Shown here in pieces: positions 5,945 to 30,380 of a stretch of DNA of 64,000 nt. The position numbers and the translations under genes are program-made. Source of the DNA: Escherichia phage VEc33; sequence record NC_048818.1; one strand, written 5' to 3'. Numbering within the stretch: the stretch's first letter is position 1; each line of letters begins with the position of its first letter. The notes beneath the pieces were generated by a model that saw only the letters and a list, made by a program, of their open reading frames with translations, had not been told where the DNA came from and searched no databases.

Positions 5945-6006
5945 ATATGTTATGGATGAGTGATCAAAGAGACACACATTTTCTATATACTAGGAGGTGT
6001 CAAAAA

Positions 6007-6978: not shown

Positions 6979-6999
6979 TATTAAGGGGAGGAGCCCATT

Positions 7000-7416
7000 A
7001 TGAGTAAATATGGTTTTGTAAATAACGGACTTAATCAAAGTATGGGCTCCCAGCAGCCCGTTCCGGGACTGGATAACCCTTACCTACAACAGTTGCAACA
7101 GCGTTTAGCAGAAGCGCAACAGATGCAGCAACAACTCCAGCAAAACCCTGGAAGTGTGAGTCCTATGCAAATGATGCAGCAAATGAGCGGGCAGTCGCAA
7201 ATGCCTCAACAAATGCAGCAACAGGTGCCTCAGCAGCAAGTTCAGCAGCAAACCCAACAACCGCAGGTTTCTGCGGAAGGACAGGCAGTACTAGCCCTTT
7301 TCGAAGACTTCGCAAAGACAGAGGATGGGAAGCAGCTTGTATCACTTATGGGTAAGTTTAATAGCTTCTGCCAAAGCCAAGTTGCAAAAGCTCAAAATGG
7401 TGGTAATAACTCCTAA
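7000..7416 (+). CDS. Gln/Met-rich low-complexity protein
   Basis: 138 aa; RBS AAGGGGAGGAG; QQMQQQLQQNPGSVSPMQMMQQMSGQSQMPQQMQQQ. Confidence 0.55.
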   Translation: MSKYGFVNNGLNQSMGSQQPVPGLDNPYLQQLQQRLAEAQQMQQQLQQNPGSVSPMQMMQQMSGQSQMPQQMQQQVPQQQVQQQTQQPQVSAEGQAVLALFEDFAKTEDGKQLVSLMGKFNSFCQSQVAKAQNGGNNS

Positions 7417-7425
7417 GGAGGAATT

Positions 7426-7620
7426 ATGTGTTGCAGAAAATCTGTTTCGTGCTGCCCAATGCCTGTAGCACGTTGTTGCTCTCCAGCAATGTTTACGCAA
7501 ATACCGGCGTTCAATCCGTTTGCCTTTAAGCCTACTCTTATCCTGCCCCCTAGAGTAGATTTTCAGTCAAGATTGGCCTCCCGTATGGGTGGTTGCTGTA
7601 ACAAGAGTATATGGTTCTAA
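7426..7620 (+). CDS. small Cys-rich protein (CC motifs)
   Basis: 64 aa; RBS AAGGAGG; MCCRKSVSCCPMPVARCCSP...GGCCNK; followed by terminator. Confidence 0.5.
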   Translation: MCCRKSVSCCPMPVARCCSPAMFTQIPAFNPFAFKPTLILPPRVDFQSRLASRMGGCCNKSIWF

Positions 7621-7633
7621 AGAACCAAACAAT

Positions 7634-7672
7634 AAAGCCCCTAGTCGAAAGACTTAGGGGCTTTTTCTTTTG
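7634..7672 (+). terminator. rho-independent terminator of the plus-strand cassette
   Basis: hairpin AAGCCCCTAGTC-GAAA-GACTTAGGGGCTT followed by TTTTCTTTT. Confidence 0.7.
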
Positions 7673-7675
7673 CCT

Positions 7676-7716
7676 TAAATACAGAAAAGCCCGCGCTCTC
7701 GGAGGAAACGCGGGCT
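7676..7716 (-). terminator. rho-independent terminator after the SPFH gene
   Basis: hairpin AAGCCCGCG...CGCGGGCTT followed by U-run on minus strand; convergent with 7634-7672. Confidence 0.6.
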
Positions 7717-7740
7717 TGGTTCGAAGATTACGTGTAACTA

Positions 7741-8688
7741 TTACTTGTTACGCATATCCATGATCATTTGACCATCGTAACCAGTACCTACTACAGTCTG
7801 AGGCACACCACCTTGATATTTCTGAGCACGAATCATATCAACTTCCAGTTGTTTCCAACGAATCATCTCAGGAGTAATGGTACGTTGCAGTGCGGCGTTA
7901 GCTTCAGCTTCTTTCTTAGCTGCGTACAGTTTAGCATCTGCGTCACGTTCATTAGCGATAGCTTGGTTGTTGCGAGCTTCACGATCTGCTTCTGCTTGTT
8001 TAACTTTTTGCTGTGCTTCCTGTTCAACACGAGCTAATTCAGCTTTAGCAGCATTAGCCTGTTCTTCACGAACTTTGGTATTCTGTACCTGTTCCATGAT
8101 TACCGGTGGCAAAGTAATATCCTGAAGGAATACCTGCTTAACTGTGTAACCATATGGGCGTGCGTACTCTTCAACTTCCTGTTGAATTGCAGTTTGCAAT
8201 TGAGCCTGAATTTTAGCATCAAACAAATCTTGTGCTTTAGGTACAGACTTACCAAACTCACGAATAGTAGACAGTAATTTTTCAGTTACATATTTGTCTA
8301 ACGCTTGATCCTGAGTACCTGCATTAATACGGTTAATCGGTGCCTTAGAACCATCAAACTGCAACATAACAGTCAGATCAACAGTGGATTTAAACTTATC
8401 CTGACTAGGAACCTGAAGTTTATCTAATTTTACAGCAATATCTTTAGTACTAAAAGTATCGAAAGAAGCAAAAGGATTTACAATATGAAAGCCGGGTAAT
8501 ACTGGATTAGGGTCTACTTTACCCAGGAATGTTTGAGTTTTAACCGTACCATCAGAAACAATAGTATATGAATTAAAAGCTAGAATTAAACCTGCTAAAC
8601 CAACTACAGCACCAATCCCCCAACGTTTAATAGTACGAATTACTTTCTGCTCAGAAGTTAGTTCTTTCATATTTTTAGTATTAAACAT
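7741..8688 (-). CDS. SPFH/band-7 (HflC/prohibitin-like) membrane protein
   Basis: 315 aa; N-terminal TM WGIGAVVGLAGLILAF, SPFH core, Ala/Glu/Gln-rich coiled-coil. Confidence 0.65.
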   Translation of the reverse strand: MFNTKNMKELTSEQKVIRTIKRWGIGAVVGLAGLILAFNSYTIVSDGTVKTQTFLGKVDPNPVLPGFHIVNPFASFDTFSTKDIAVKLDKLQVPSQDKFKSTVDLTVMLQFDGSKAPINRINAGTQDQALDKYVTEKLLSTIREFGKSVPKAQDLFDAKIQAQLQTAIQQEVEEYARPYGYTVKQVFLQDITLPPVIMEQVQNTKVREEQANAAKAELARVEQEAQQKVKQAEADREARNNQAIANERDADAKLYAAKKEAEANAALQRTITPEMIRWKQLEVDMIRAQKYQGGVPQTVVGTGYDGQMIMDMRNK

Positions 8689-16421: not shown

Positions 16422-16954
16422 TAATAAGTAACCAATTCCTGTACAAATCGCAGGCTGTTATCACTGTTTGCGCCAACTGCATAGACTAATCGAGTGGATT
16501 CATAGTTATAATCCAGTATCATACTATCTAGGTGTATATCTGCCTCTAGCTTCTGCTCGCTAAAGATTGTAGATACAAAAGCACTTTCAATATGCCCATG
16601 TTGGTACATTTCTAGAAGAAGATTAGCTCCACCTAGAACTACTGTTTGCTGATCTTTTAGAAAAGTAGGTAATGTATCACCTATCATTGATATGGGAGTG
16701 TAAATATCGTGTGTAATATCATCTGGCAGTGGACGATCAGCACGAATAAATAGGTCAGAAGCTCCAATCATACGTTCCCTAACGGCGTATGGAAGAGCTA
16801 AATAAGTACCTGCCCCAATAATAATATTATCAGGATTTAGTACATCTAATTGTGAATAAAAAGCATCTAGTTCTTCTTTAAAAGAACCCCAGGGAAGCTT
16901 ACCTCGGAGGCCGAACTCCCCATTCGGCCCAACTGCATACATTGCTGTAATCAT
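16421..16954 (-). CDS. frd: dihydrofolate reductase
   Basis: 177 aa; MITAMYAVGPNGEFGLRGKLPW, overlaps thyA start by 1 nt as in the T-even frd-td arrangement. Confidence 0.75.
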   Translation of the reverse strand: MITAMYAVGPNGEFGLRGKLPWGSFKEELDAFYSQLDVLNPDNIIIGAGTYLALPYAVRERMIGASDLFIRADRPLPDDITHDIYTPISMIGDTLPTFLKDQQTVVLGGANLLLEMYQHGHIESAFVSTIFSEQKLEADIHLDSMILDYNYESTRLVYAVGANSDNSLRFVQELVTY

Positions 16955-18096
16955 AGGAAATCTCCAAATTCATTGCCCAGATCTTTCAGAGTATCAGTAG
17001 AGGTCTCAGTTACCTGACCTACACGGTAAGCTGCACCAATCTGGATTTCTTGTGGAGCAGGCTGTAGAGAAGTAGTATCCAACCAGTTCATGATCCACGG
17101 AATAGGGTTTTTGGTGATTACTGGTAAGTGACTAGGCCATTCTACACCAATGTGTATAAATGCGTTACGTCCCACAAAGTACAAGTATTCTTCTAGAAGT
17201 TCTGCATTCAAACCAATCAGACTACGACCTTTGAAGATGAAATGACCCCATTCAATTTCAGTTTTCAGAGTTTTCAGGAGCTGTGCTGGTGCTTTAGCCA
17301 CTGCTTCATCTACCAGATCTTTGTCAAACTGCTGGAACATAATCTGGATGATTGTTTTAGACATCTGAGTATGTAGGGCTTCATCTTTAGCAATCAATTG
17401 CAGATTTTTAGCAATACCTTGCAGAATATCGTTCTCTGCTAACGCAAAGGTACATGCAAAGGATGCGTAGAACTGCATTGCTTCCAGACCGTAGATTGCA
17501 AAATAAGCATCTAACAGTTTAGCCTGAGTTTCACGCTTAACTTCAGGGAACTCAGTTTCTGGATATGTATTGTCACCACGATGATCACGTACTGCAATGA
17601 AATACTGACCTAACTGGTACAGTTCATCAAACAGTTCAACAGAATCTGCGATACGTGCAAATGCTTCTTGGTTTTTAGTTACAGAATCAATAAATTCTGC
17701 CGGATCAGTCAGCACATTACGGATAATGTTGCTATACGCACGGCTATGCAGGTCTTCGAAGTAGCTCCACTGTTTTAGCATTCCTTCCAGTTCAGGGCGG
17801 CTTACAAGTGGCATAATAGCTGCTTCAGGCGCTCGACTGATAAAGGAATCAGTTTGGGTCTGCCATGCTAAGTTCAGGAGTGTAATTTCCTGAATTTCAC
17901 GTGGGAGGTTGGGCCATTGTTTCTTATCTGCTTCCAGACTGATTTCAGTTTCAGTCCAAAATTGAGAGCGTTGCAGAAGTGCCAGACGCTCTAATTCTGG
18001 ATGGGCTACACGCACATAGTCTGCGATACCAAGAGAGTCTCCCAGGAAAAGATCAGCGTTAGTATGATCCCAGTTCAGGTTTAGTAAAGTAGTCAT
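16951..18096 (-). CDS. nrdB: ribonucleotide reductase class Ia beta subunit
   Basis: 381 aa; ferritin-like di-iron fold motifs, C-terminal tail; overlaps frd start. Confidence 0.85.
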   Translation of the reverse strand: MTTLLNLNWDHTNADLFLGDSLGIADYVRVAHPELERLALLQRSQFWTETEISLEADKKQWPNLPREIQEITLLNLAWQTQTDSFISRAPEAAIMPLVSRPELEGMLKQWSYFEDLHSRAYSNIIRNVLTDPAEFIDSVTKNQEAFARIADSVELFDELYQLGQYFIAVRDHRGDNTYPETEFPEVKRETQAKLLDAYFAIYGLEAMQFYASFACTFALAENDILQGIAKNLQLIAKDEALHTQMSKTIIQIMFQQFDKDLVDEAVAKAPAQLLKTLKTEIEWGHFIFKGRSLIGLNAELLEEYLYFVGRNAFIHIGVEWPSHLPVITKNPIPWIMNWLDTTSLQPAPQEIQIGAAYRVGQVTETSTDTLKDLGNEFGDFL

Positions 18097-18202: not shown

Positions 18203-20533
18203 TTATAACTGGCAACCACCAGAAGCACAACCCGCTGCTTCTTCTCCAGCCCCACCACCATTTGCAGTGTTGAAGTTTGCGTAGTACCAAGTTTTTATAC
18301 CGTACTTAACAGCAGTCATGAAATCACGAACTACTACTGGGCCAGGGATGATTTCATTCTCGAATTTAGAGTAATCATAATACATCTGGAAACTTGATGA
18401 CTGATTCAAGAATTTTTGGTAAACGGCGTTCCACTTGATCCACTCAGTGCGATCAATATCATAGGCCAGTTTATAGCTCATGAGAGTATCCCAATCGGTT
18501 GCACCTGGAGCAATTGCAATTACTTTATTCACTGCACTACCTTTGATAGATACAATCTTACGAGGTGGCTCAATTGAGTTGGTAACACCCAATAGTACAG
18601 AAGAGCTTTCTCCCGGCATCTGCGCAGTCAGAACAGAGTTACGCATACCGTATTTCAGAATATCTGCACGCAGAGATTCCCAGTCCATTTCTAGACCTAC
18701 GGATACCAGTTCATCAACAGTTTTCTTGTACGTGTCGATTACCAGAGTTCCTTTAGATGGTTTAGTACGATCGAACCATTCACATGCACCTTGCTCTTTG
18801 GCTAGACGTACAGAGGCTTTATGCAGGAAGTAAGACAGTTTTTCAGCCTCACGATGAATCCAGTTACGTGCTTCAACACCTTCGTAGGCCAAACCTTCCG
18901 CCGCCATTGCACCTGCTGCGTTCATCAGACCAATACCAACATTACGACGTTTCTTAGCCGTATATTCCATAGTTGGGAACGGATAATCCTGAATTTCAAT
19001 GATGGTATCAACGAATTTCAGAAGAATATAGCAAGTCTTTTCCCACTCAGCCAGAGATTCCATGCGTCCTAGTACAACACCACCTAAGTTACACAGAGAT
19101 ACTTCCCCAATATCCTCCGGCTTCATTTGATCAAGTTGTTCTTTTGTTTTATACAGTTCCGTGATATGATGGAACGGGCGTGTAGGCTGAGTAATTTCAA
19201 CACAAAGGTTTGTCATACGGATTGGATCAAGGAAGTTACCGTGACGATTAGATTCCCCGATGTGGTGTGCATACATACGTCCTGTTTCCATTCGGATACG
19301 TAGCCAAGTATCTAGGATTTCTTTTGCTGAGACTTTAGGAGCTGCTGGAACTGTTTTTCCTTCGTGGTCGATCTTTGTAAGAGATGCCACACGTTTCTCC
19401 GCTGCCACATAGATTTCTTCAAATTTAGCCTCGTCATCACTATAAAACGCTTCATGAACTTCTGGAGCATAGAAGTATGACATTAGCGTAATATCTTCAT
19501 TTTTCAGATAACGTTTTAACAAAAGATTGTTGAAGCTCAGAGAATAATCCATCTTATCGATTTTATTCTCATCTGTAGCACGTTGTTGCTTAACCTGCAT
19601 CAATTGAATGATTTCAGGGTCAAAGTATGGATAAGACACTGTAGCAGAACCACCACGAGTTTGCTGAGTATTGGCCTTTACTGAGCGGTCAATGTGTCGA
19701 TAATATGGCAGTTTTCCGGAATGCGGGAATGCCCCATTTCGCACCGGATCAGCAATTGATCGGCTTTCAAGATGATACCCGATTCCAGCTCTGGCTGCGA
19801 CCATTTTGAAGACGATGTGCTCGGCTGTGTCGATTGAATCCAACGTGTCAGTGGAATCCACGAGGCAGCAACTAGCAAATCCACGGTCACTAGAACGCAA
19901 ACCAACCAGTGGCGGCGTAGGAACGTTGATTTTGTGGAGCGACATTGCATTGTAGAGATCGATTGCATCTAGAATTGTCCAGTTGGGTTGAGATAACATC
20001 GCCATTGCCATGCCCATATAGGCAAATTGCGGGGTTTCGTAAATTTCGCCAGTTGCGATATTACGACGAGAATACTTATCAAAGAATTGTTTCAATCCTC
20101 CGCTAGTGAAAAGACGGTCGCGATCATGGTCGATAACCTGATTCAGAGCTTCAAATTGCTCATCGGTAATCCATGCACTCATGTCTTCCCATGCACCTAC
20201 ACTAACCATATGATCGTGGAAAAAGCGCAGAGAAGGTGGTTCGAAGGAATCATAAAGGCGTTTACGCATTTGCGCAAGACGTAATTCCTTTGCTGGCACG
20301 TCGTATGCTGGATTATCTTTGATAAGACTTTCAGCAGCCTTAATTAAAGCATCCATCAGAGTGTCGGAATCTACAATCCCCTTAGGTAGAGTTTTTTGAG
20401 CAGCCATAGTAATGGCTGACCAACTTACATCAACTGTTTTGCAACCATACTCTGCCCAACCATTGAGTTTTTCAGGAGCAAAGTCTTCTACAGTACCGTC
20501 ACGTTTAATTACTTTTTCGATGCGATGGCTCAT
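18203..20533 (-). CDS. nrdA: ribonucleotide reductase class Ia alpha subunit
   Basis: 776 aa from ATG 20533 (MSHRIEKVIKRDG, ATP-cone) with AGGAAAA RBS; track ORF extends 35 codons upstream without RBS. Confidence 0.9.
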   Translation of the reverse strand: MSHRIEKVIKRDGTVEDFAPEKLNGWAEYGCKTVDVSWSAITMAAQKTLPKGIVDSDTLMDALIKAAESLIKDNPAYDVPAKELRLAQMRKRLYDSFEPPSLRFFHDHMVSVGAWEDMSAWITDEQFEALNQVIDHDRDRLFTSGGLKQFFDKYSRRNIATGEIYETPQFAYMGMAMAMLSQPNWTILDAIDLYNAMSLHKINVPTPPLVGLRSSDRGFASCCLVDSTDTLDSIDTAEHIVFKMVAARAGIGYHLESRSIADPVRNGAFPHSGKLPYYRHIDRSVKANTQQTRGGSATVSYPYFDPEIIQLMQVKQQRATDENKIDKMDYSLSFNNLLLKRYLKNEDITLMSYFYAPEVHEAFYSDDEAKFEEIYVAAEKRVASLTKIDHEGKTVPAAPKVSAKEILDTWLRIRMETGRMYAHHIGESNRHGNFLDPIRMTNLCVEITQPTRPFHHITELYKTKEQLDQMKPEDIGEVSLCNLGGVVLGRMESLAEWEKTCYILLKFVDTIIEIQDYPFPTMEYTAKKRRNVGIGLMNAAGAMAAEGLAYEGVEARNWIHREAEKLSYFLHKASVRLAKEQGACEWFDRTKPSKGTLVIDTYKKTVDELVSVGLEMDWESLRADILKYGMRNSVLTAQMPGESSSVLLGVTNSIEPPRKIVSIKGSAVNKVIAIAPGATDWDTLMSYKLAYDIDRTEWIKWNAVYQKFLNQSSSFQMYYDYSKFENEIIPGPVVVRDFMTAVKYGIKTWYYANFNTANGGGAGEEAAGCASGGCQL

Positions 20534-20677
20534 TTGGTTTTCCTTTTTATAGTTATCAGGATTTAGGAAATAGTTTACTTTATTCTCAGTCATTTGGCAA
20601 ATAAAATTTTCTGATAGAAAAGGCCCGAGTATTTTCATACCCAGGCCTTCTGTGTTGTCAGTCTAGTTTTTGGCCAC

Positions 20678-20876: not shown

Positions 20877-21638
20877 TTACACCTTCCCCATGTCTTTAAA
20901 AATATCGTAGAATGCTTTAGACTCAGCAGAACGAACGTTATCAATCAATTCGATCATTGAGAATGGAGCATTTTCATATTTCTCATAAACTTCCATAAGA
21001 AGAGCTAGACCTGAGTCACCTTTAATATCTTTCTGAGCTATATCTCCGCAGATAATTAAACGGCAGTCTTGTCCTACACGAGTTAGGAGACAAACCATTG
21101 CCTCAACGGAAATATTCTGAGCTTCATCGACAATTACATAGGAGTTGTTGAAAGTTCTGCCACGAGCATGTTCTATAGCCAAAAATTTAATTTTCTGACG
21201 TTCGACATATCCCTTATAGGCATGATCACCGATGGCCCATTTCATACCATCAGCTATTGGCTCCAACCAAGGCTCTAGCTTTTCTGCTAGATCACCAGGA
21301 AGCATACCAAGAGACTTACCTAGAGGTTCATTAGGACGTACGAGGATCACTTGCTCAATATCTGAGTGAATGTCTACGAGTTCCTGAGCTGCAAGAACAG
21401 ACGGGATAAAGGTTTTACCTGTACCTGGCTCACCGATACCCACAGTCACTGTGTTGTTCTTGATCATATTGATATATGATTTTTGCTCTCGGTTTTTACC
21501 TACTAGGGATTTAGCAACTGGGTTAGCGTAATCATTAGAAAAATCAGCCTGAATTACGTTATTCTCATATTTGTTGCCACGCTTTCTTGAACCATTGCGG
21601 TTCTCTCTTTTTTGACGTGCTTTTCCCATAAATAACAC
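20877..21638 (-). CDS. phoH: PhoH-like ATPase
   Basis: 253 aa; Walker A GEPGTGKTF, Walker B VIVDEAQN. Confidence 0.85.
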   Translation of the reverse strand: MLFMGKARQKRENRNGSRKRGNKYENNVIQADFSNDYANPVAKSLVGKNREQKSYINMIKNNTVTVGIGEPGTGKTFIPSVLAAQELVDIHSDIEQVILVRPNEPLGKSLGMLPGDLAEKLEPWLEPIADGMKWAIGDHAYKGYVERQKIKFLAIEHARGRTFNNSYVIVDEAQNISVEAMVCLLTRVGQDCRLIICGDIAQKDIKGDSGLALLMEVYEKYENAPFSMIELIDNVRSAESKAFYDIFKDMGKV

Positions 21639-21702
21639 TCCTATAGTGTACTTCGCTAACAGAGGATCAACAAAAAGATCTTGTTTATCAACTTACAAAT
21701 AT

Positions 21703-21731
21703 ATTATACCAGTATATGCAGTAAAAAGCAA
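21703..21731 (-). promoter_or_regulatory. sigma70-type promoter for the phoH operon
   Basis: attata 21703-21708 and aagcaa 21726-21731. Confidence 0.5.
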
Positions 21732-21843
21732 CTACAATTTTAAATAAGCCTATGATATTGCATTTAAATAAAAAATTTGCTTGCTTTTAACTGGAAATGT
21801 ATGGTATTAGATAATCATTTTATACCGCGTACATAGGCGCGTG

Positions 21844-21872
21844 ATTATACTATTTTAAGTACAAAATAGCAA
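21844..21872 (-). promoter_or_regulatory. second upstream minus-strand promoter in the divergent hub
   Basis: attata 21844-21849 and tagcaa 21867-21872. Confidence 0.45.
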
Positions 21873-21942
21873 ATAAATTTTTTAACAATTTGCTAACTTT
21901 TTAGCACAGATCAAAATACAATATCTAAGAGAAAAATTATAT

Positions 21943-21970
21943 TGACATTTGCCCTTGAATAAGCTATAAT
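21943..21970 (+). promoter_or_regulatory. consensus sigma70 promoter for nrdD (TTGACA-16-TATAAT)
   Basis: TTGACA 21943-21948, TATAAT 21965-21970, about 30 nt before the RBS AAAGGAGGG. Confidence 0.6.
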
Positions 21971-21999
21971 AGTAGTCTTAGTTAGAAAAGGAGGGTATA

Positions 22000-23874
22000 A
22001 TGAATCGCAATGATGAACTAAAATACAAGGAAATGCAGTCCTTGATTAGAAACTGCAAAGAAATTATTGAGGGTTCTGCTGATGAAGAGCTTCTCTTTAA
22101 TAATGCGAATAAACCCTCTGAGCGTTTCCCTACACAAAGGGATATGCTCGCAGGGGAATTGAGTAAATATCTGATTCTAGAAGAAATGCCAGTTCAGATT
22201 CGAAATGCTCATATGATTGGAGATATTCATTTCCATGATGCTGATTACGCTGCTTTAGGCATGACTAACTGTTGCCTAGTAGCCCTGGAAGATATGTTGA
22301 AAAATGGTATGAAAGTTGGTAATGCTGAAATTAGCACTCCAAACTCTATCACTACTGCGGCTGCTATTACAGCTCAGATTATCACACAGGTTAGCTCCCA
22401 TCAGTATGGGGGTACTTCTGTAGACCGATTAGATGAAGTATTGGCTCCTTATGTTCGTAAGTCTTATGATAAGAATCATGCGTTTGCAAAACGTTGGACT
22501 AAGGATGAAGCCAAAGCATCAGTAATGGCTACGGAGATGACTGAAAAAGAAGTCTATGATGCTTGTCAGGGTCTAGAGTATGAAATCAATACGATGTTCA
22601 ACTCTAATGGTCAGAGTCCATTTATTACCTTTGGTTTTGGTCTAGGAACTTCTTGGGAAGCACGTCTAGTACAGAAAGCAATACTGAAAGTACGTATGGA
22701 TGGCTTAGGTATCAATAAACGTACAGCTATCTTTCCGAAACTGGTGTTTGTTCTGCGTGATGGCGTAAATATGAAGCCAGGGGATGTTAATTATGACATC
22801 AAGAAGTTAGCTATGAAATGTACTGCTGAACGTATGTATCCAGACTATATCAGCTATGATAAGGTTGTGGAAGTTACTGGTGACTATAAAGTTTCTATGG
22901 GCTGCCGTTCATTCCTAGCTGCTGCAGAAGATGGTGAAACTGCCGGTCGTAATAACTTAGGTGTTGTTTCTGTAAACTTGCCTAGAATTGCTATCGAAGC
23001 TGAAGGGAATATTGATCTATTCTTTGATTTGCTTGAGCTACGTGTTGATACAGCGTTAAAAGCGTTGGAGTGGAGAGTTGATCGCTTAAAATACATTCAA
23101 GCTAAAGCCGCGCCCATCCTCTATATGTCAGGAGCCTTTGGGTTACGCTTAGGGCCTGATGAATATGTATTCGATCATTTCTATAACCGTGCTTCTGTAT
23201 CTCTGGGGTATATTGGTTGCCATGAAATGCTACAGTTCATGTTTGGCAAAGATGTAGACACAATGTCCGAGACTTGCATCAAGTTTGTTCAGCGTGTATT
23301 GCAGTACATGCGAGATAGAGTCGATCAGAAGAAGGAAGAGACTAAGTTAGGTTATAGCCTGTATGCTACACCGTCAGAGTCCCTATGCGATCGGTTTTGT
23401 CGTCTAGACCGTGAATATTTCCCGGAGCATGAAGATATTCTGTCTAAAGGATACTACACTAACTCGCACCACCTTGATGTAGAACGCAAAGTTGCTCCCA
23501 ATGTGAAATTTGATTATGAATCTAATTTTACTCCGATTGCTTCTGGTGGGTGCATTTCCTATGTAGAACTACCAGATATGAAACGATTCCCAGATGCACT
23601 GGAATGGGTTATTAATTATGCTGCTAGTAAAGTTCATTACTTCGGTATTAATACTCCAGTGGATTCTTGTAGTAAATGTGGATTCTTAGGTGAAACAATA
23701 GCATCTGAAGATGGATTTAAGTGCCCTATCTGTGGTAATCATGACCCCGAAACTCTTGAAGTAACTCGTCGAGTTTGTGGGTATCTTGGAAATCCGGGTG
23801 CTCGTCCATTTAACCCCGGCAAACAGCACGAGGTGATGGGCAGAGTGAAACATCAGGATATTCGAGCTAAATAA
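22000..23874 (+). CDS. nrdD: anaerobic ribonucleoside-triphosphate reductase (class III)
   Basis: 624 aa; C-terminal Zn ribbon CSKCGF...CPICG and glycyl-radical motif RVCGYLG. Confidence 0.9.
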   Translation: MNRNDELKYKEMQSLIRNCKEIIEGSADEELLFNNANKPSERFPTQRDMLAGELSKYLILEEMPVQIRNAHMIGDIHFHDADYAALGMTNCCLVALEDMLKNGMKVGNAEISTPNSITTAAAITAQIITQVSSHQYGGTSVDRLDEVLAPYVRKSYDKNHAFAKRWTKDEAKASVMATEMTEKEVYDACQGLEYEINTMFNSNGQSPFITFGFGLGTSWEARLVQKAILKVRMDGLGINKRTAIFPKLVFVLRDGVNMKPGDVNYDIKKLAMKCTAERMYPDYISYDKVVEVTGDYKVSMGCRSFLAAAEDGETAGRNNLGVVSVNLPRIAIEAEGNIDLFFDLLELRVDTALKALEWRVDRLKYIQAKAAPILYMSGAFGLRLGPDEYVFDHFYNRASVSLGYIGCHEMLQFMFGKDVDTMSETCIKFVQRVLQYMRDRVDQKKEETKLGYSLYATPSESLCDRFCRLDREYFPEHEDILSKGYYTNSHHLDVERKVAPNVKFDYESNFTPIASGGCISYVELPDMKRFPDALEWVINYAASKVHYFGINTPVDSCSKCGFLGETIASEDGFKCPICGNHDPETLEVTRRVCGYLGNPGARPFNPGKQHEVMGRVKHQDIRAK

Positions 23875-23881
23875 GCTAATC

Positions 23882-23916
23882 AGCCGGGTTGCTAGTCGAC
23901 CTGGCTTTTATTTTAT
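23882..23916 (+). terminator. rho-independent terminator after nrdD
   Basis: hairpin AGCCGGGT...ACCTGGCT followed by TTTTATTTTATTT. Confidence 0.6.
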
Positions 23917-23973: not shown

Positions 23974-24264
23974 ATGAGCGAGTTGCTTCCTAAAGTAGAT
24001 GTCTCCCATCTTGGGGAGCCTAGTGAAGAACGTAAGGCTCTAGATTGGTTGGGTGGATTTGATTATCGTCGTGTTGTTGCAACATGGAATGATAAGAATG
24101 ATAAGAAAGTTAAGAAGTTTCGGGTACATTATGTAGGTAAAGACAAGTGGCTCTGGATTGATTATGAAGAATCAAAGGGGTCTACTAAGGCTGTGAAAAT
24201 TTATTGTATGTATGGGTATTATTATGCTCACTGTGATAAGAATGAATTTACAGTACAGAACTAA
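23974..24264 (+). CDS. hypothetical protein
   Basis: 96 aa ORF downstream of promoter and RBS. Confidence 0.5.
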   Translation: MSELLPKVDVSHLGEPSEERKALDWLGGFDYRRVVATWNDKNDKKVKKFRVHYVGKDKWLWIDYEESKGSTKAVKIYCMYGYYYAHCDKNEFTVQN

Positions 24265-24273
24265 GGAACAAGA

Positions 24274-24477
24274 ATGAAAAACGTAAAACATCTTAAATAT
24301 CGCTTAATTTACAACGGACGTATGGAAACAGAAGATCTGGCCCAATTAGCTATTACTTCTAATGAGGTTACGGTGCGTGCTCTGGCAATTGAAAAGTTGC
24401 GTGCCTCTTATGAAAATCGTGTTATGGAACTGGAGGAGAAACTTTATGGACTTCTTGAATCAGAATCTAAAAAGTAA
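24274..24477 (+). CDS. hypothetical protein
   Basis: 67 aa; RBS AAGGAACAAGA. Confidence 0.45.
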   Translation: MKNVKHLKYRLIYNGRMETEDLAQLAITSNEVTVRALAIEKLRASYENRVMELEEKLYGLLESESKK

Positions 24478-24640
24478 TCCAGAAAACATGCTTATTGAGC
24501 AATGGAACTTTGGTTATAATGCTGGTGTAGCTACTTGTATTGCTAGATTGGATACGCTTATTAAGCAAGAAAAGGTACGCCCTGAGGAAGCAATTTTACT
24601 CCGAAATATTATCGAAGGATTTAAGCAAGGAATCGTATAG
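24446..24640 (+). CDS. hypothetical protein
   Basis: 64 aa from ATG 24446 with GGAGGAG RBS; overlaps previous ORF end. Confidence 0.4.
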   Translation: MDFLNQNLKSNPENMLIEQWNFGYNAGVATCIARLDTLIKQEKVRPEEAILLRNIIEGFKQGIV

Positions 24641-25476
24641 TGCGTAGATTAATTATTATTAGCGGTGCAGGTTTGAGTGTTGAAAGTGGTGTACGAGCTT
24701 TTCGTACTGATACTGCTAGTGGTAAAGCATTGTGGGATGATTATGATCTAGAAGAAGTATGTAATATTCATGCCTTTCGTGGTAATTTTTATCATAAAAC
24801 CCATATGTTTTACAACAAACGTCGTGAAGAGCTAAAAACTGTTGAACCCAATCTTGCACATTTGCGTATTGGTGAATGGTATAAACAATATCCAGGTCAA
24901 GTAGTAAACTTGACTACCAACGTTGATGACCTTATTGAGCGTGCTGGCGTTCCACATAGTGACATTCTGCACATTCACGGATATTTAAAAGAGGTTGTTG
25001 TAGCTGATAGCTACAATAGTAGCAATAAACGGATTATTGATGTAGGGTATAATTCTATTGATCCAGATGATTATAAATGGGTTAAACCTAATGTAATCTT
25101 CTTTGGAGAACATGCTCCTGCATACGCAGAAATGTATAATGTTTTTGATGGTATTACCAGTCAAGATATGATCATTGTGGTTGGTTGCTCTAATCAAGTA
25201 ATTAACTTCTACTGGGAATTATTTCCTGTTCTTAATTTGACTGCTGCCAAACTAATGGTAGTTAACTACTATGATAGTGCCATAGCAGCAGAGCCAGGCT
25301 ATCAAGGTATGACTCGTAGTGAGATGTACCAACTGGAAGATCGTGGTATTCCTTACTGGAGTAATGGTGCGGTAGATGCTTTTAGTGACCCTGATTTTAT
25401 TGCTCGTGTGGAAGCCCATTTAGAGGGTAGACCTTATGTGCCGGAGAGAAGGGGAAACAGATATGTCCATAGTTAA
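24640..25476 (+). CDS. Sir2-family (sirtuin-like) NAD-dependent enzyme lacking the canonical Cys4 zinc ribbon
   Basis: 278 aa, GTG start after AAGGAA; GAGLSVESGVRAFR, TTNVDDL, HIHG; no CxxC...CxxC. Confidence 0.65.
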   Translation: MRRLIIISGAGLSVESGVRAFRTDTASGKALWDDYDLEEVCNIHAFRGNFYHKTHMFYNKRREELKTVEPNLAHLRIGEWYKQYPGQVVNLTTNVDDLIERAGVPHSDILHIHGYLKEVVVADSYNSSNKRIIDVGYNSIDPDDYKWVKPNVIFFGEHAPAYAEMYNVFDGITSQDMIIVVGCSNQVINFYWELFPVLNLTAAKLMVVNYYDSAIAAEPGYQGMTRSEMYQLEDRGIPYWSNGAVDAFSDPDFIARVEAHLEGRPYVPERRGNRYVHS

Positions 25477-25645
25477 ATCTGTTTATACACATCCCGATGA
25501 TATATTTGTATGGGCGGACGGTAGTTGGTGCTATCGCTGTGAGCTATGGGAAATGGACTATAAATCCGATGATTATGGTGTCATATATGTTGATACGGTT
25601 GAGTATGATACGTTCTTAGAAAGGGACAAAAATGGAAATAAGTAA
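25463..25645 (+). CDS. hypothetical small protein
   Basis: 60 aa from ATG 25463 with AGGGGAAA RBS. Confidence 0.35.
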   Translation: MSIVKSVYTHPDDIFVWADGSWCYRCELWEMDYKSDDYGVIYVDTVEYDTFLERDKNGNK

Positions 25646-26138
25646 TACTCCAATTATTTTTCTAGATATTGATGGGGTGCTCAACTCGAGCATCTCCCAT
25701 CACCATGCACCTGATGATGAAAAGATTTTCTTTGGAAGTGACTGGGTTTTTAAACCGCTTCTCAAGGCTTTTCAGGATTTTATTCGTCCTTCTCCAATAA
25801 TGATTGTTGGGGTATCTTCATGGTTCTCTGTCAGGAATGAGATGGAGAACGTTCAGATTATGACCGGATTAGATCTTATCGATCGTTTTCTTGGTACAAC
25901 GGATTTTACTGGTGGTGGATTATCTAGGGGTAATTCTGTTCTTCGCTTCGTTGAAAAGCATAAGCTCAAACATTGGTGTGTGCTGGATGATGCTGGTGCT
26001 ATGATGTATCAGTATCCAACGGTTATAGTCAATGGTAGAACTGGAATAAATCTTCAAGATTTAAGAGCTGTTAGCTATATGTTAGAATTTAGTCCAGATC
26101 TTGAAATGTGTAAAGCCCTGCAACAATTTAAGGTGTAA
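25632..26138 (+). CDS. HAD-superfamily phosphatase-like protein
   Basis: 168 aa; HAD motif I FLDIDGVLN near the N-terminus, acidic motif CVLDDAG near the C-terminus. Confidence 0.55.
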   Translation: MEISNTPIIFLDIDGVLNSSISHHHAPDDEKIFFGSDWVFKPLLKAFQDFIRPSPIMIVGVSSWFSVRNEMENVQIMTGLDLIDRFLGTTDFTGGGLSRGNSVLRFVEKHKLKHWCVLDDAGAMMYQYPTVIVNGRTGINLQDLRAVSYMLEFSPDLEMCKALQQFKV

Positions 26139-26140
26139 AT

Positions 26141-26569
26141 ATGTTCAATAATGTATTCTCTAAAGAGGCTAACCCGATATTGGTTAATTTTTGGCGTACT
26201 CTTCCAGCCAACCTGTACAATGAGGCTATTAATGCTTTGAAAATATGGTGTGAGAATAATGAAATCTCCTTTGCTTTTAAAGGTGAGATTGAAGAGGCTC
26301 CCTGTATTGGTTTAATTGTGCAGGTGGAGGATGGTCTTGAAGAGATTGTCGGCTGGAAAGAGTTGGATGAAATGGGCTTGGTTTTTGCGTTAAACTATAA
26401 GCTGTTTATGCCCAATAAACACCGTATTGTTGTTAACTATAAAACCAATGAATCTCCTGGTTTTCAAGTTAATGAACGGTATGGTTGGTCTTACTCACCA
26501 GAAGAAGTAAATGATGGTATCCAAAAACTTCGTCGTTTTGGTTATCAAATTCCGGGTTTAACCGCCTAA
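26141..26569 (+). CDS. hypothetical protein, tandem paralog A
   Basis: 142 aa; shares PCIG, ELxxMGL(V/I)xALN(Y/F)xLF and (Q/Y)(I/V)PGL motifs with 26579-26971. Confidence 0.5.
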   Translation: MFNNVFSKEANPILVNFWRTLPANLYNEAINALKIWCENNEISFAFKGEIEEAPCIGLIVQVEDGLEEIVGWKELDEMGLVFALNYKLFMPNKHRIVVNYKTNESPGFQVNERYGWSYSPEEVNDGIQKLRRFGYQIPGLTA

Positions 26570-26578
26570 GGGGGCACA

Positions 26579-26971
26579 ATGGAACAAGTATATTGGCGTC
26601 AGATCGACCCTAGTTTGGTGAAGCGTGCAGAGAAGCTGCTACAACGTTGGTTGGGGGTAAGACAAGCCTCCTTCACTTTTCCGGAGCAGCAAATAGACGA
26701 TCCCTGTATTGGTGTTTTCCTATCAGGCTACGCTAGGGAATGGGAATTGGATTGGAATGAGTTGTCTGCTATGGGTTTAATTGTTGCCCTAAATTTCTCT
26801 TTGTTCCATACACGTGGTTTGGCTATATGTCGTGTGCCTGATGACGGTTGTTCGCCCCATCTTTTACAGGTGGAAGATGATATTTGGGAGTACACTCCAG
26901 ATATTCTCAAAGAAGCTAAAGAACAATTAAATCGTGCTGGGATTTATGTTCCAGGCCTGAACGATGAATGA
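26579..26971 (+). CDS. hypothetical protein, tandem paralog B
   Basis: 130 aa; paralogous to 26141-26569. Confidence 0.5.
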   Translation: MEQVYWRQIDPSLVKRAEKLLQRWLGVRQASFTFPEQQIDDPCIGVFLSGYAREWELDWNELSAMGLIVALNFSLFHTRGLAICRVPDDGCSPHLLQVEDDIWEYTPDILKEAKEQLNRAGIYVPGLNDE

Positions 26972-26987
26972 GTTTTATTAGCTGAAC

Positions 26988-27016
26988 TCTGATTACCGAG
27001 CCATTTTGACTCGGTT
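26988..27016 (+). terminator. hairpin terminator after the paralog pair
   Basis: ACCGAG-CCATTTTGA-CTCGGT followed by TTTCTC. Confidence 0.45.
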
Positions 27017-27062
27017 TTCTCTATGTTCAAAGACACTGGTAGCAGCTCCTGGAAAAATCTAC

Positions 27063-27091
27063 TTGCAGGATGCCCAAAATCTTGATATAAT
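27063..27091 (+). promoter_or_regulatory. sigma70-type promoter followed by an unusually long (about 500 nt) leader
   Basis: TTGCAG 27063-27068, TATAAT 27086-27091, conserved TATTTATATTGAATTGAGAG downstream element but no ORF start. Confidence 0.5.
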
Positions 27092-27590
27092 ATTTATATT
27101 GAATTGAGAGACATTAGTAAAAATTGATTTTGCTAATTTTTCTTGTTTACAATCCGCGATACGGAACAGTTAGGCTGCCCCATTAAGGGTTGTTTTAACT
27201 GTTACGTGTTAGTTTTTAAACAAATAGTTAATAGAATACTTAGCGATCTGCGTCCCGTAGGAACCCTGGTAAGGCCTCGAAGCAACCTAGATAGAGGTGG
27301 TTGTGAAGTGAGACGGGAGGAGTGAAAAACTCCGAGACGTGATTCTGTAAGTTATATTGCATCTAGTATGAGCTAGTATATGAAGCATTAGGTGAGCAAA
27401 TCTGGCTTAGCGGCCATCCTCAAGGATTTGTGCGGTATAGCAAAGCAGCAGCGCAGCGTGAAAGTGGAAGTTGCCACCCCACTTCAGTATTTGCGATTAA
27501 TTTGTTGAGAAATTGACAGTAACAGTTGTTCTATTCTTTCTGAATAGTCCTAAAGAAAACTTATTTCATTTCCAACACAGGAGTATTGTT

Positions 27591-30380
27591 GTGTTTTCAA
27601 TCCTACAAGGTCATGCAGGATTTCATCGCGATTTAGCCACAGGCAATTGGCGAGAAGTTAAAGCAGAAGATTATCTTTTTGCTAAAAGATTTTCCTCAAA
27701 GCATCCTGAAGGTAAACCAGCTTCAATGCCCTTCAAGTTTGATGTAATTGACGAAGTTGATCCTCAAACCCTAGTAGAAATGCTTCCCATTATGAGACGT
27801 TTAACGTCTGACCCTCATATCGTTGCGGTACGAGGTCGATGTCTTGCACCTAAAAATAATGTGCGGCGTAAGAAGGGCAACTTTAATGTATCTAACCCAA
27901 GTCATATAATCGCAATGGATGTGGATGGTATTGTAGATACAGGTGGTTGTAACAAGTTTGATCTTGTTGGCATGGCTCGACATATTATTAGAATGTTAAA
28001 TAGTATTAGTGAGGATATGTTCCCTCTTGATGCAGGGTTTATCGCTCATGCATCATCTTCGGCTGGGCTAAAACCAGGTATCCGAATGCACTTAATACTA
28101 GAATCTAATGTTAAAGTAACTCAGGGTCAAATCAAATTCTTATTTACATCTATCAACGAAAGTAGTAGACAAAAGTATGGCTTTGATATTGCCGACCTAG
28201 CTTATTACTCTTCCGTACAGCTTCATTATTTTGCAGATCCGTTATTTATCGATGGTATAGTAGATCCGTTTAAAGCGGAGGGTGCTTCACGTCTGGTATT
28301 TGTTAAGGGTTCTAAAGTAAATTTACCCAATAATCTGGTTGACTATGAAACAACTAGAGGAGAGTTTAAAGAGGAGTTCTACTCCTTACTCGATCAAATT
28401 AAAGGTAAAAAGGCTGCCTCTGATAAAGTAGAAGAAACCATCAGCGAGTTAGAAGAAGCCGAGGATGGAGTGTATCTACGTATTATTCCTAAACTCTATC
28501 ACAGAGCTTTAGAGGATGGTGTTGATTTTGCATGGCTAGAAAAAGAAATCCGCCCAGCCTTATCAGAATATATTGCAACTAAAGATAATAGTCGTAATAT
28601 TCAAGACTACTTTAATAACGGTCGTAAACAGGCTCTGAAAGCGTTTGTTAATAATTCTAAACGCGATATACCTGATGTTTTAAAAGGTATTCCACTTAAA
28701 AAGCTAGAAACTAATTCTCTAGAAACTGATAACTTCTTGAAATTAAACACTGTACCACCAGAAGGTTATATGACTTTTGTAAAAGCAAGTCTAGGTACAG
28801 GTAAAACCACGGCAGTTGTGCGTTGGTTAGATTCAGGGGTTATTAAAGGTAATTTCTTAGCAATTACCAATACTAGAGCACTGGTATCTTCAAATGCTAA
28901 GAAATTTAGTGCAGGACAGTATGATAAGTCTGTAGATATGCTTAATTTTAAGCGTGGTGCTATTGACCGTATGTCCACAACTATTCACTCTTTGCATAAA
29001 TTCAAGAGTTTTATTGGTCAAATTGACGCAATCTTTATCGATGAATGTGATGCAGTAATGAATGACCTATTATTCGCCCCGGTTGTTAAGCAACGTCGAG
29101 AGTGTATTCAGGTTCTTCGGGATATTCTTGCAACTGCAAAAATCATTATATTATCTGATGGGGATATTAGTGCAGAAACAATTGAAGCATATGGTTCTTT
29201 GATTGAGTTTGATAAACCGGTTGCATTTTATAATCATCACCGTAAAATGCTATCAAAAGCTCATGCTTATGAGTTTCCTGATGAATCCAGTATTTGGGTT
29301 GCACTTCAGACTTCCCTGGAGATGGGTGAGAAATCTATCCTAGTATCTGACTGTGGGCCAGATGAACTGAATGAGAAGGGCATGGCGTTGCGTCGTAATA
29401 CGGGTGCGTTAGTTAAGGAAATCCATTCAAATTCTACGTCTGATGTGGATATTAGACGTATCCTGGATTACACAACTAATGAGTTAATTGACCAACAAAT
29501 TGATTGCTTATTATGTAGTCCATCCGTAACGAGTGGTGTTGACTTCAACTATTTTGATAACGTATTCGTTATTACTAGAACCTCAAACCAAGCGCCAAAC
29601 ATGCGTTTCCAAGCAATCAGGCGCGACCGTGGTGCTCAGAATATCTATTATTTTATTGATAAATCCACTAGTGGATTCTCCGCAGGTTCTGAACAATATA
29701 ATATTGATGAAGGTTGGCTGGAGTTAGCACAGCAATTATATGCACGTCGCAGAGAGCTGGAATCTAGGAACTATACTAGTACTTTACGTTATTACTTGCT
29801 TGATCAGGGTGCAACTATTGATATTTTCAGCGAAAGCTGGGGAACTATTGAAGGTGCTGGTAAAGAGTACACAGAAGAGCGAATCAAAGCTATACTGTAT
29901 TCAACTCCTGATTATTGTGCTCCACGCCATGCAGATGCGTATGAAGCTAAACTACTTCTTGTTCGCTATTATCATCTTGAGTCTATTAAAGATGTAACAG
30001 TTGAGCATGTTGAACAATATATCAAGGATAAACCTAATGATCGAGCGGCATTCTTCCATAAAATGCACGAGATGTTTTGGGAAGATATTAAGAAGTGTTC
30101 AAATGTCACTATCAAACCATTCATAGAAGCTCTGAAAGGTAAGAAGAAAGATTTCTTCCTTAAAACAGGTCAGAGTGCTAACCCAAAATATGCGAGAATG
30201 TATCTTGGTATGATGGGTATTGGTAAGGATATGAACACTGAAAATATTGTAGACTGGTACAGAACCTATTGTAAAATCGAGTGTATGCCAATCCCGTATA
30301 AGTTTATGACTGATGAGGAGAAACATATGCATGATGAAGCAATGGCAGAGCTAGGTGCTAGAAATGACAGTGAAGAATAA
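27591..30380 (+). CDS. primase-polymerase-like / P-loop NTPase fusion (putative replication initiator, origin-binding type)
   Basis: GTG 27591 after ACAGGAGT RBS; N-terminal AEP-like IIAMDVDG...AHASSSAG; Walker A ASLGTGKTT, Walker B FIDECDAV. Confidence 0.6.
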   Translation: MFSILQGHAGFHRDLATGNWREVKAEDYLFAKRFSSKHPEGKPASMPFKFDVIDEVDPQTLVEMLPIMRRLTSDPHIVAVRGRCLAPKNNVRRKKGNFNVSNPSHIIAMDVDGIVDTGGCNKFDLVGMARHIIRMLNSISEDMFPLDAGFIAHASSSAGLKPGIRMHLILESNVKVTQGQIKFLFTSINESSRQKYGFDIADLAYYSSVQLHYFADPLFIDGIVDPFKAEGASRLVFVKGSKVNLPNNLVDYETTRGEFKEEFYSLLDQIKGKKAASDKVEETISELEEAEDGVYLRIIPKLYHRALEDGVDFAWLEKEIRPALSEYIATKDNSRNIQDYFNNGRKQALKAFVNNSKRDIPDVLKGIPLKKLETNSLETDNFLKLNTVPPEGYMTFVKASLGTGKTTAVVRWLDSGVIKGNFLAITNTRALVSSNAKKFSAGQYDKSVDMLNFKRGAIDRMSTTIHSLHKFKSFIGQIDAIFIDECDAVMNDLLFAPVVKQRRECIQVLRDILATAKIIILSDGDISAETIEAYGSLIEFDKPVAFYNHHRKMLSKAHAYEFPDESSIWVALQTSLEMGEKSILVSDCGPDELNEKGMALRRNTGALVKEIHSNSTSDVDIRRILDYTTNELIDQQIDCLLCSPSVTSGVDFNYFDNVFVITRTSNQAPNMRFQAIRRDRGAQNIYYFIDKSTSGFSAGSEQYNIDEGWLELAQQLYARRRELESRNYTSTLRYYLLDQGATIDIFSESWGTIEGAGKEYTEERIKAILYSTPDYCAPRHADAYEAKLLLVRYYHLESIKDVTVEHVEQYIKDKPNDRAAFFHKMHEMFWEDIKKCSNVTIKPFIEALKGKKKDFFLKTGQSANPKYARMYLGMMGIGKDMNTENIVDWYRTYCKIECMPIPYKFMTDEEKHMHDEAMAELGARNDSEE

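What the first reader, a model, noticed from the sequence alone, without database searches (positions are those of the whole stretch)
22000..23874. Class III anaerobic ribonucleotide reductase without an adjacent activase
NrdD is intact (glycyl-radical motif RVCGYLG and C-terminal zinc ribbon), but none of the downstream small ORFs has the CxxxCxxC radical-SAM signature of NrdG. The phage enzyme would have to be activated by the host NrdG, or the activase is encoded elsewhere. The phage also carries class Ia NrdAB, so it encodes both aerobic and anaerobic reductases.
Basis: partly seen in the sequence, partly recalled or inferred. Interest (0 to 1): 0.28.

Follow-up and report, generated by a model that had tools for sequence, protein, structure and literature searches.

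The report
Phage NrdD without its own activase
A T5-like phage carries an intact, strongly conserved oxygen-sensitive ribonucleotide reductase gene but no gene for the radical-SAM enzyme that switches it on, so it most likely borrows the host's NrdG; this arrangement was already tabulated for T5 and its relatives in 2013, so it is real but ordinary.

Summary
Window 22000-23874 (+) encodes a complete class III ribonucleotide reductase (NrdD, 624 aa; Pfam NRDD E=2e-172). It keeps every catalytic residue, the four-Cys zinc ribbon and the RVCGYLG glycyl-radical loop, and it has no ATP cone. No NrdG or radical-SAM protein is encoded in the 64-kb window. None was found in the complete genomes of T5 or of the close relative S131 either. 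The window is a T5-like phage (Demerecviridae, Markadamsvirinae). The nrdB-nrdA-nrdD gene set without nrdG was published for T5, SPC35 and EPS7 (Dwivedi et al. 2013, Table S1). The gene is under strong purifying selection (dN/dS 0.02). Its glycyl loop is identical to that of E. coli NrdD, and nrdG is present in 5426 of 5426 complete E. coli genomes. The best explanation is activation by pre-existing host NrdG; this is inferred, not shown. Side observations: T5 and S131 also carry a GrcA-like glycyl-radical protein without an activase, and the T5 reference strain has a 150-bp in-frame deletion in nrdD. Verdict: real, correctly interpreted, already known, low interest.

The parts
21942..21970 (+). 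Consensus sigma-70 promoter of nrdD (TTGACA, 17 nt, TATAAT; 12 of 12 matches)
   Evidence: sequence read. T5 annotates a promoter at the syntenic place. No FNR-box-like site lies in 21639-21999.
21990..21994 (+). Shine-Dalgarno GGAGG, 5 nt upstream of the ATG
   Evidence: Read directly from the sequence.
22000..23874 (+). nrdD, class III (anaerobic) ribonucleoside-triphosphate reductase, 624 aa, without an ATP cone
   Evidence: It is 52-54% identical to E. coli NrdD, 50% to T4 NrdD and 99% to S131 NrdD. dN/dS against S131 is 0.021.
22270..22272 (+). Cys91, equivalent of T4 NrdD Cys79 (active site)
22903..22905 (+). Cys302, equivalent of T4 NrdD Cys290 (thiyl-radical cysteine on the finger loop)
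23668..23733 (+). Zinc ribbon CxxC-x14-CxxC (Cys557, 560, 575, 578), the proposed docking domain for the activase
   Evidence: The role in the NrdG interaction is a conjecture stated in PMC4493059.
23770..23790 (+). Glycyl-radical loop RVCGYLG (Gly594 corresponds to T4 Gly580). The 10-mer VTRRVCGYLG is identical to E. coli NrdD.
23882..23906 (+). Intrinsic terminator (10-bp stem with 6 GC pairs, then a T run) directly after nrdD, which makes nrdD a one-gene transcription unit
   Evidence: T5 annotates a terminator at the same place.
23974..24640 (+). Three small ORFs downstream of nrdD (96, 67 and up to 92 aa). They are not activases: PHROGs 7953, 5236 and 5827, all of unknown function.
   Evidence: None has a CxxxCxxC motif.
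20877..21638 (-). phoH-like ATPase, transcribed divergently from nrdD
   Evidence: PhoH, 1e-61.
18203..20638 (-). nrdA, class Ia reductase large subunit. The true start may lie downstream of this longest ORF; S131 annotates 776 aa.
16951..18096 (-). nrdB, class Ia reductase small subunit

Best explanation
The phage makes its own cone-less NrdD from a strong constitutive early promoter. It relies on NrdG protein already present in an anaerobically growing enterobacterial host, together with host flavodoxin and S-adenosylmethionine, to place the glycyl radical on Gly594. Once activated, the enzyme reduces NTPs to dNTPs with formate as reductant, so phage DNA synthesis can continue where the oxygen-dependent NrdAB pair cannot work, as in the gut.

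Shown here: the gene is intact and selectively maintained; no activase is encoded in the window or in complete relatives; the host gene is universal in E. coli. Inferred: that host NrdG is the activating enzyme and that the enzyme is active during anaerobic infection.
For: 1. All catalytic, zinc-binding and radical residues are conserved. dN/dS is 0.021 against S131, with 69 synonymous and 6 non-synonymous differences. That fits a working enzyme, not a relic.
2. No radical-SAM or NrdG gene is found in the window, S131 or T5.
3. The glycyl loop, including the 10-mer VTRRVCGYLG, is identical to that of E. coli NrdD. T4, which brings its own NrdG, has RRTCGYLG. A 2026 review states that the known cases of cross-activation by glycyl-radical activases involve identical or near-identical Gly loops, and that E. 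coli PFL activase does not act on the RVCGYLG peptide (PMC13450708).
4. nrdG is present in 5426 of 5426 complete E. coli genomes.
5. NrdG acts catalytically: activated NrdD turns over many times without it (PMC11226230). A small pre-existing pool could therefore suffice after the phage shuts off host transcription.
6. There is a parallel within the lineage. T5 and S131 encode a 122-aa GrcA/YfiD-like protein with the PFL loop RVSGYAV and no PflA homologue. For the T4 homologue Y06I, activation by the host PFL activase has been demonstrated (Wagner et al. 2001, cited in PMC8683613).
7. nrdD is monocistronic, bounded by its own promoter and terminator, so no partner gene is co-transcribed with it.
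Against: - No experiment on T5-type NrdD activation was found in the searchable literature. Dwivedi et al. say it is unknown whether such incomplete gene sets are functional.
- T4, whose NrdD is 59% identical to the host enzyme, still carries its own NrdG. From my own recollection of Young et al. 1994 (JBC, not verified here), T4 NrdD needed the phage NrdG. Cross-activation by host NrdG is therefore not guaranteed.
- T5 degrades host DNA early, so host nrdG cannot be newly induced after infection.
- The host-like C-terminal domain (62% identity to E. coli, against 45.5% for T4) does not discriminate. Vibrio phage Chester has its own NrdG and is even closer, at 76%.
- The rest of this phage's genome was not available.
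Confidence: 0.8

Rival explanations
1. The activase is encoded in the roughly 46 kb of this phage's genome that lies outside the window.
For: The window covers only about 58% of a ~110-kb genome, and T5-like genomes are mosaic: the best matches are 92-97% identical and differ between window segments. Vibrio members of the same family (Chester, Thalassavirus) do carry nrdG near nrdD.
Against: The complete genomes of S131 and T5 have none by tblastn, profile HMM and motif scan. Database-wide, the excess of NrdD-bearing over NrdG-bearing records per host name equals the number of T5-like records. Dwivedi et al. list T5, SPC35 and EPS7 without nrdG.
Confidence: 0.03
2. The phage NrdD is not used as a reductase. 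It is either a dispensable remnant or has another role, such as titrating host NrdG.
For: The T5 reference strain carries a 50-aa in-frame deletion in the barrel, so the gene is dispensable in aerobic laboratory culture. The published survey left function open.
Against: dN/dS is 0.021 and all active-site, zinc and radical residues are conserved. The segment deleted in T5 is present in 388 records, against 390 for a neighbouring control segment, so natural isolates keep the gene whole.
Confidence: 0.07
3. A different host radical-SAM activase (PflA or another glycyl-radical-enzyme activase) installs the radical, not NrdG.
For: E. coli has several such activases, and the phage lineage appears to use PflA for its GrcA-like protein.
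Against: E. coli PFL activase does not act on the RVCGYLG peptide, and specificity follows the Gly-loop sequence (PMC13450708). The phage loop is that of NrdD, not of PFL.
Confidence: 0.05
4. One of the phage proteins of unknown function is a non-homologous activator or an adaptor for the activation step.
For: Three conserved small ORFs follow nrdD, and many window ORFs have no assigned function.
Against: Glycyl-radical installation has only been seen with [4Fe-4S]/SAM enzymes. No window ORF has the cluster motif, the small ORFs have at most two cysteines, and a terminator separates them from nrdD.
Confidence: 0.02

Closest known systems
nrdD of phage T5 (T5.099) and of the T5-like phages SPC35 and EPS7 (Markadamsvirinae)
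   Same: The same gene at the same place: nrdB-nrdA-phoH on one strand, nrdD divergent with its own promoter and terminator, and no nrdG. NrdD is 91-99% identical in sequence. The gene set was published as 'nrdB-nrdA-nrdD' with an empty NrdG column (PMC3653736, Table S1).
   Different: The T5 reference sequence lacks residues 393-442; the window's gene is complete. Otherwise there are only allelic differences.
Phage T4 NrdD/NrdG (solved structures 1H78-1HK8)
   Same: A cone-less phage class III reductase of similar length (605 against 624 aa), 50% identical, with all catalytic and zinc residues shared. T4 also coexists with phage NrdAB and with a GrcA-like protein (Y06I).
   Different: T4 encodes its own NrdG next to nrdD. 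Its nrdD has a group I intron. Its Gly loop is RTCGYLG, and its C-terminal domain is only 45.5% identical to the host's.
E. coli NrdD-NrdG (the host system)
   Same: 52-54% identity over the catalytic body. The Gly loop is identical and the zinc ribbon very similar (62% over the last 66 residues).
   Different: The host enzyme has an N-terminal ATP cone and is co-transcribed with nrdG. From established knowledge, the host operon is controlled by FNR and NrdR. The phage gene has a constitutive consensus promoter and no FNR-like box.
NrdD-NrdG of Vibrio-infecting Demerecviridae (phage Chester, Thalassavirus)
   Same: Same virus family. NrdD is 51-52% identical and lies in a cluster with class I reductase genes.
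   Different: The Vibrio phage NrdD keeps the ATP cone (724 aa), and an nrdG (Fer4_12 at 4e-53, motif CSHGCNSC) sits in the same cluster.
T4 Y06I / E. coli YfiD (GrcA), the spare-part glycyl-radical proteins
   Same: A precedent for a phage-encoded glycyl-radical protein that is activated by a host activase (PMC8683613). T5 and S131 carry a homologue with the RVSGYAV loop.
   Different: It is a different protein with a different activase (PflA). The T5-type homologue lies outside this window.

Membership tests
Class III ribonucleotide reductase catalytic subunit NrdD (PF13597 / TIGR02487 / PRK09263) | Full-length profile match above the curated cut-off | tested here: met
   Pfam NRDD 575 bits (cut-off 26.2); TIGR02487 588 bits (cut-off 326); PRK09263 844 bits (cut-off 657).
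Class III ribonucleotide reductase catalytic subunit NrdD (PF13597 / TIGR02487 / PRK09263) | C-terminal glycyl-radical loop RVCGY(L/I)G with the radical glycine | tested here: met
   RVCGYLG at residues 591-597; Gly594 aligns with T4 Gly580. Pfam Gly_radical E=6e-23.
Class III ribonucleotide reductase catalytic subunit NrdD (PF13597 / TIGR02487 / PRK09263) | Active-site cysteines and asparagine (T4 C79, C290, N311) | tested here: met
   Cys91, Cys302 and Asn319 are conserved in the alignment with T4, E. coli and Chester NrdD.
Class III ribonucleotide reductase catalytic subunit NrdD (PF13597 / TIGR02487 / PRK09263) | Four-cysteine zinc ribbon before the glycyl loop | tested here: met
   Cys557, 560, 575 and 578 align with T4 C543, C546, C561 and C564.
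Class III ribonucleotide reductase catalytic subunit NrdD (PF13597 / TIGR02487 / PRK09263) | Oxygen-sensitive NTP reductase activity after radical installation | not testable with these tools
   Needs anaerobic biochemistry. It is supported only indirectly by dN/dS of 0.021.
Complete class III system (NrdD plus its cognate activase NrdG in the same genome) | A radical-SAM NrdG (CxxxCxxC; Fer4_12 / Radical_SAM) encoded by the same replicon, usually adjacent | tested here: not met
   None in the window. None in the complete genomes of S131 and T5. The unseen part of this phage's own genome could not be tested.
T5-type (Markadamsvirinae) reductase gene set nrdB-nrdA-(phoH)-nrdD without nrdG | Gene order and orientation: nrdB, nrdA and phoH on one strand, nrdD divergent, with a Sir2-like gene and the replication-origin-binding protein gene downstream | tested here: met
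   Window ORFs compared with the S131 and T5 annotation. DNA identity to Tequintavirus genomes is 92-97%.
ATP-cone-regulated NrdD (E. coli type) | N-terminal ATP-cone domain (PF03477) | tested here: not met
   No ATP-cone hit. The alignment to PRK09263 starts at profile position 87. The Chester NrdD control does show the cone.

The most novel reading that the evidence does not exclude
T5-like phages may not simply borrow NrdG. They may have evolved a distinct way of activating or using NrdD. Examples would be an unrecognised phage factor that retargets a host radical-SAM enzyme, or a phage NrdD that monopolises the host NrdG pool so that only phage dNTP synthesis runs under anoxia. Together with the GrcA-like protein, which would keep PFL making formate (the NrdD reductant), this would form a coordinated module for anaerobic infection that depends on two host activases.
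Probability: 0.05. Interest if true: 0.55.

Novelty: already known. Interest (0 to 1): 0.12.

Why it matters
If host NrdG really is the activase, host nrdG becomes a conditional host factor for T5-like phages under anoxia. That is relevant to phage therapy and biocontrol with Tequintavirus and Epseptimavirus phages in the gut. It would also be a clean natural test of how far glycyl-radical activases tolerate non-cognate partners. The genomic fact itself is long published and the explanation is the expected one, so the finding adds nothing new beyond a more complete exclusion of a distant nrdG. The 2013 survey only accepted nrdG hits that lay close to other reductase genes.

Tried and rejected
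- An FNR-type anaerobic promoter upstream of nrdD. There is no TTGAT-N4-ATCAA-like site in 21639-21999, and the window-wide count is at chance level: 64 matches against 62 expected.
- The three small downstream ORFs as hidden activases. They have no family, at most two cysteines, and lie beyond a terminator.
- The one CxxxCxxC-bearing ORF found in relatives (T5.055 and its S131 homologue, motif CICSCWMCGNPRK, next to the GrcA-like gene). It is a 103-aa basic protein with no Pfam hit and no similarity to NrdG, and it is too small for a radical-SAM core.
- The C-terminal domain's similarity to the host as proof of dependence on host NrdG. It is real (62%, against 45.5% for T4) but does not discriminate, because Chester, which has its own NrdG, reaches 76%.
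- Literature searches for experiments on T5 NrdD activation or on anaerobic T5 infection found nothing.
- Technical note: several fetched loci never reached the script sandbox, so S131 positions 100,000-110,091 were checked only by reading the ORF translations, not by script.

Full report
**What the window is.** The 5.9 kb around the finding matches 538 phage records by megablast, almost all of them T5-like phages of Salmonella, Escherichia and Klebsiella. The best matches are 95-97% identical (GEC_vB_N5, S131, JLBYU40). The other end of the window matches different T5-like phages at about 92%. So this is a mosaic member of Demerecviridae/Markadamsvirinae (Tequintavirus-like) that is not itself in the collection. 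GC skew and the ORF map show a divergent junction at about 21.6-22.0 kb. nrdB, nrdA and phoH run leftward, and nrdD, a Sir2-like gene and the replication genes run rightward.

**The observation.**
- ORF 22000-23874 (+) is a complete NrdD. It matches Pfam NRDD end to end (E=2e-172), Gly_radical at 6e-23, TIGR02487 at 588 bits and PRK09263 at 844 bits.
- The PRK09263 alignment begins at profile position 87, and no ATP-cone domain is detected. The enzyme is therefore cone-less, like T4 NrdD (PMC11226230).
- The closest solved structures are a 734-aa NrdD (9d3x, E=2e-188) and T4 NrdD (1h78, E=5e-177).
- In a five-way alignment every T4-numbered functional residue is present: C79, C290, N311, E446, the zinc cysteines C543, C546, C561 and C564, and the radical glycine G580.
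NrdA and NrdB are confirmed by Pfam.

**Absence of an activase.** Four independent tests on the window were negative.
- A six-frame scan for CxxxCxxC found the motif only in short or antisense segments.
- tblastn with three NrdGs (E. coli, T4, Vibrio phage Chester) gave no hit below E=1.2. The same queries found T4 nrdG at 1e-37 to 1e-107.
- All 65 window ORFs of at least 100 aa were scanned against Pfam together with three spiked NrdGs. Fer4_12 and Radical_SAM were matched by exactly the three spikes, at an E-value limit of 0.05.
- An NrdG profile HMM against six-frame segments gave a best window E-value of 0.075, against 2e-84 for the control.

The window is only part of the genome, so I repeated the tblastn, HMM and motif scans on two complete relatives. 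These were S131 (positions 1-99,999 by script; the last 10 kb by reading the ORFs) and T5 (all 121,750 bp). Both were negative. The only CxxxCxxC in a plausible ORF is in T5.055 and its S131 homologue. That is a 103-aa basic protein (CICSCWMCGNPRK) with no Pfam hit and no similarity to NrdG.

**Database-wide picture.**
- tblastn finds NrdG-like genes in 2276 phage records and NrdD-like genes in 2907.
- The excess by organism name is Salmonella 397-126=271, Escherichia 1053-931=122 and Klebsiella 346-265=81.
- These numbers closely match the counts of T5-like records by the same names: 274, 130 and 82. T5-like phages therefore account for most phages that have NrdD but not NrdG.
- Within the same family, Vibrio phage Chester (Ermolyevavirinae) has a cone-bearing NrdD and an nrdG in one cluster. 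The NrdG-less, cone-less state is thus a trait of the Markadamsvirinae, not of the whole family.

**Already known.**
- Dwivedi et al. [quoted passage not shown] - Their Table S1 lists these three phages as nrdB-nrdA-nrdD with no NrdG accession (PMC3653736).
- RNRdb in 2009 already counted 30 phage NrdD against 21 phage NrdG (PMC2795772).
- Dwivedi et al. add that it is unknown whether such incomplete sets are functional. They accepted nrdG hits only when these lay near other reductase genes, so a distant nrdG would have been missed. The whole-genome scans here close that gap for T5 and S131.

**Is the gene in use?**
- Against S131 there are 69 synonymous and 6 non-synonymous differences, giving dN/dS of 0.021.
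- The T5 reference genome is an instructive exception. Its nrdD (574 aa) lacks residues 393-442 through a clean 150-bp in-frame deletion between two copies of TCGATCA. The lost piece includes the conserved RASxSLGYIG segment that E. coli, T4 and Chester NrdD all have (for E. coli; alignment).
- The deleted segment is present in 388 phage records, against 390 for a neighbouring control segment. The deletion is therefore confined to a couple of records.
- My reading, which is inference, is that the gene is dispensable in aerobic laboratory passage but maintained in nature.

**How it most likely works.**
- nrdD has a perfect sigma-70 promoter (21942-21970), a strong ribosome-binding site and its own terminator (23882-23906). 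There is no FNR-like box. It is thus made as a one-gene early transcript whatever the oxygen level.
- Radical installation needs a [4Fe-4S]/SAM activase. The only available one with the right specificity is host NrdG, which is present in 5426 of 5426 complete E. coli genomes.
- The phage Gly loop, including the 10-mer VTRRVCGYLG, is identical to the host's, whereas T4 (which has its own NrdG) has RRTCGYLG.
- A 2026 review reports that known cross-activations involve conserved Gly loops, and that PFL activase rejects the RVCGYLG peptide (PMC13450708). This favours NrdG over PflA.
- NrdG works catalytically (PMC11226230). The pool present in an anaerobically growing cell could therefore serve after T5-type host shut-off.
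- The zinc-ribbon domain, proposed as the docking site for NrdG (PMC4493059), is 62% identical to the host's, against 45.5% for T4. I give this little weight, because Chester, which has its own NrdG, reaches 76%.

**A supporting parallel.** T5 (T5.056) and S131 (orf97) encode a 122-aa Gly_radical protein whose C-terminus (TIRVSGYAVRFNALTREQQ) carries the PFL/YfiD loop. Neither genome has a PflA homologue. For the T4 homologue Y06I, activation by the host PFL activase and repair of oxygen-cleaved PFL were shown (Wagner et al. 2001, cited in PMC8683613). PFL makes formate, and formate is needed for substrate reduction by class III reductases (PMC11226230; PMC5704485 abstract). The two phage genes may therefore serve one anaerobic dNTP supply line. 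That link is speculation. By synteny, this gene lies about 3.3 kb beyond position 1 of the window, so it cannot be confirmed for this phage.

**Verdict.** The feature is an ordinary, already published property of T5-like phages. The mechanism, host NrdG, is the expected one and remains untested experimentally. I put it at about 0.8. The alternatives are a non-reductase or dispensable role (0.07), another host activase (0.05), an activase in the unseen part of the genome (0.03) and a novel phage factor (0.02).

Noticed in passing
Window 23176-23325 (NrdD residues 393-442); L010:8961-10685 (T5 reference nrdD): The T5 reference genome (NC_005859) has a clean 150-bp in-frame deletion in nrdD between two 7-bp direct repeats (TCGATCA). 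It removes a conserved part of the barrel. The segment is present in 388 phage records, against 390 for a flanking control segment, so the deletion looks specific to the laboratory T5 lineage.
   Followed up: yes
L007:28790-29158 (S131 orf97) and T5 27656-28024 (T5.056); by synteny about 3.3 kb beyond window position 1: T5-like phages encode a 122-aa GrcA/YfiD-like autonomous glycyl-radical protein (Pfam Gly_radical 4e-18, loop RVSGYAV). It is annotated as 'pyruvate formate-lyase' or 'acetyltransferase-related protein'. It is a second glycyl-radical protein with no phage-encoded activase.
   Followed up: partly
T5 27263-27574 (T5.055); S131 near 79360: A small basic protein (103 aa) immediately downstream of the GrcA-like gene carries a dense cysteine motif, CICSCWMCGNPRK. 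It has no Pfam family and no similarity to NrdG. S131 annotates only a 55-aa CDS there.
   Followed up: partly
Window 25632-26138 (+): The 168-aa ORF that several relatives annotate as a second 'Sir2' is in fact a HAD_SAK_2 domain protein (HAD domain of the 'Swiss Army Knife' RNA repair proteins, E=2e-20). The true Sir2-family gene is 24640-25476 (compared with the annotations).
   Followed up: partly
Window 26141-26569 and 26579-26971 (+): Two tandem paralogues, each with two DUF7415 repeats (E=3e-32 and 5e-31; PHROG 2502), of unknown function.
   Followed up: no
Window 5947-7416 (+), within 6001-8000: A GC-rich island (GC 0.47 against about 0.38 around it) holds two ORFs (343 and 138 aa) on the strand opposite to their neighbours. 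Neither has a Pfam hit. The arrangement is conserved in T5 (T5.077 and T5.078) and S131.
   Followed up: partly
Window 26972-27512: About 540 bp without a convincing ORF lies upstream of the 955-aa replication-origin-binding protein ORF, whose TTG start is probably too far upstream (T5 annotates 928 aa). T5 has a similar gap of about 570 bp containing a terminator and a promoter.
   Followed up: no
Phage collection records, e.g. OR848287.1 and OR848434.1 ('Listeria phage LM 4-14-1'), and records named Campylobacter or Vibrio phage: Short unannotated records deposited under names of unrelated hosts carry T5-like DNA; one has an NrdD 98.9% identical to the window's. They are probably contamination or mislabelled fragments, and they inflate host-range impressions in name-based counts.
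   Followed up: no
L006 (Vibrio phage Chester 62288-67888): In Vibrio-infecting Demerecviridae the reductase genes form one cluster on a single strand: nrdD (with ATP cone), a small ORF, two CDSs annotated only as 'ribonucleotide reductase', then nrdG. This contrasts with the split, NrdG-less layout of T5-like phages.
   Followed up: partly
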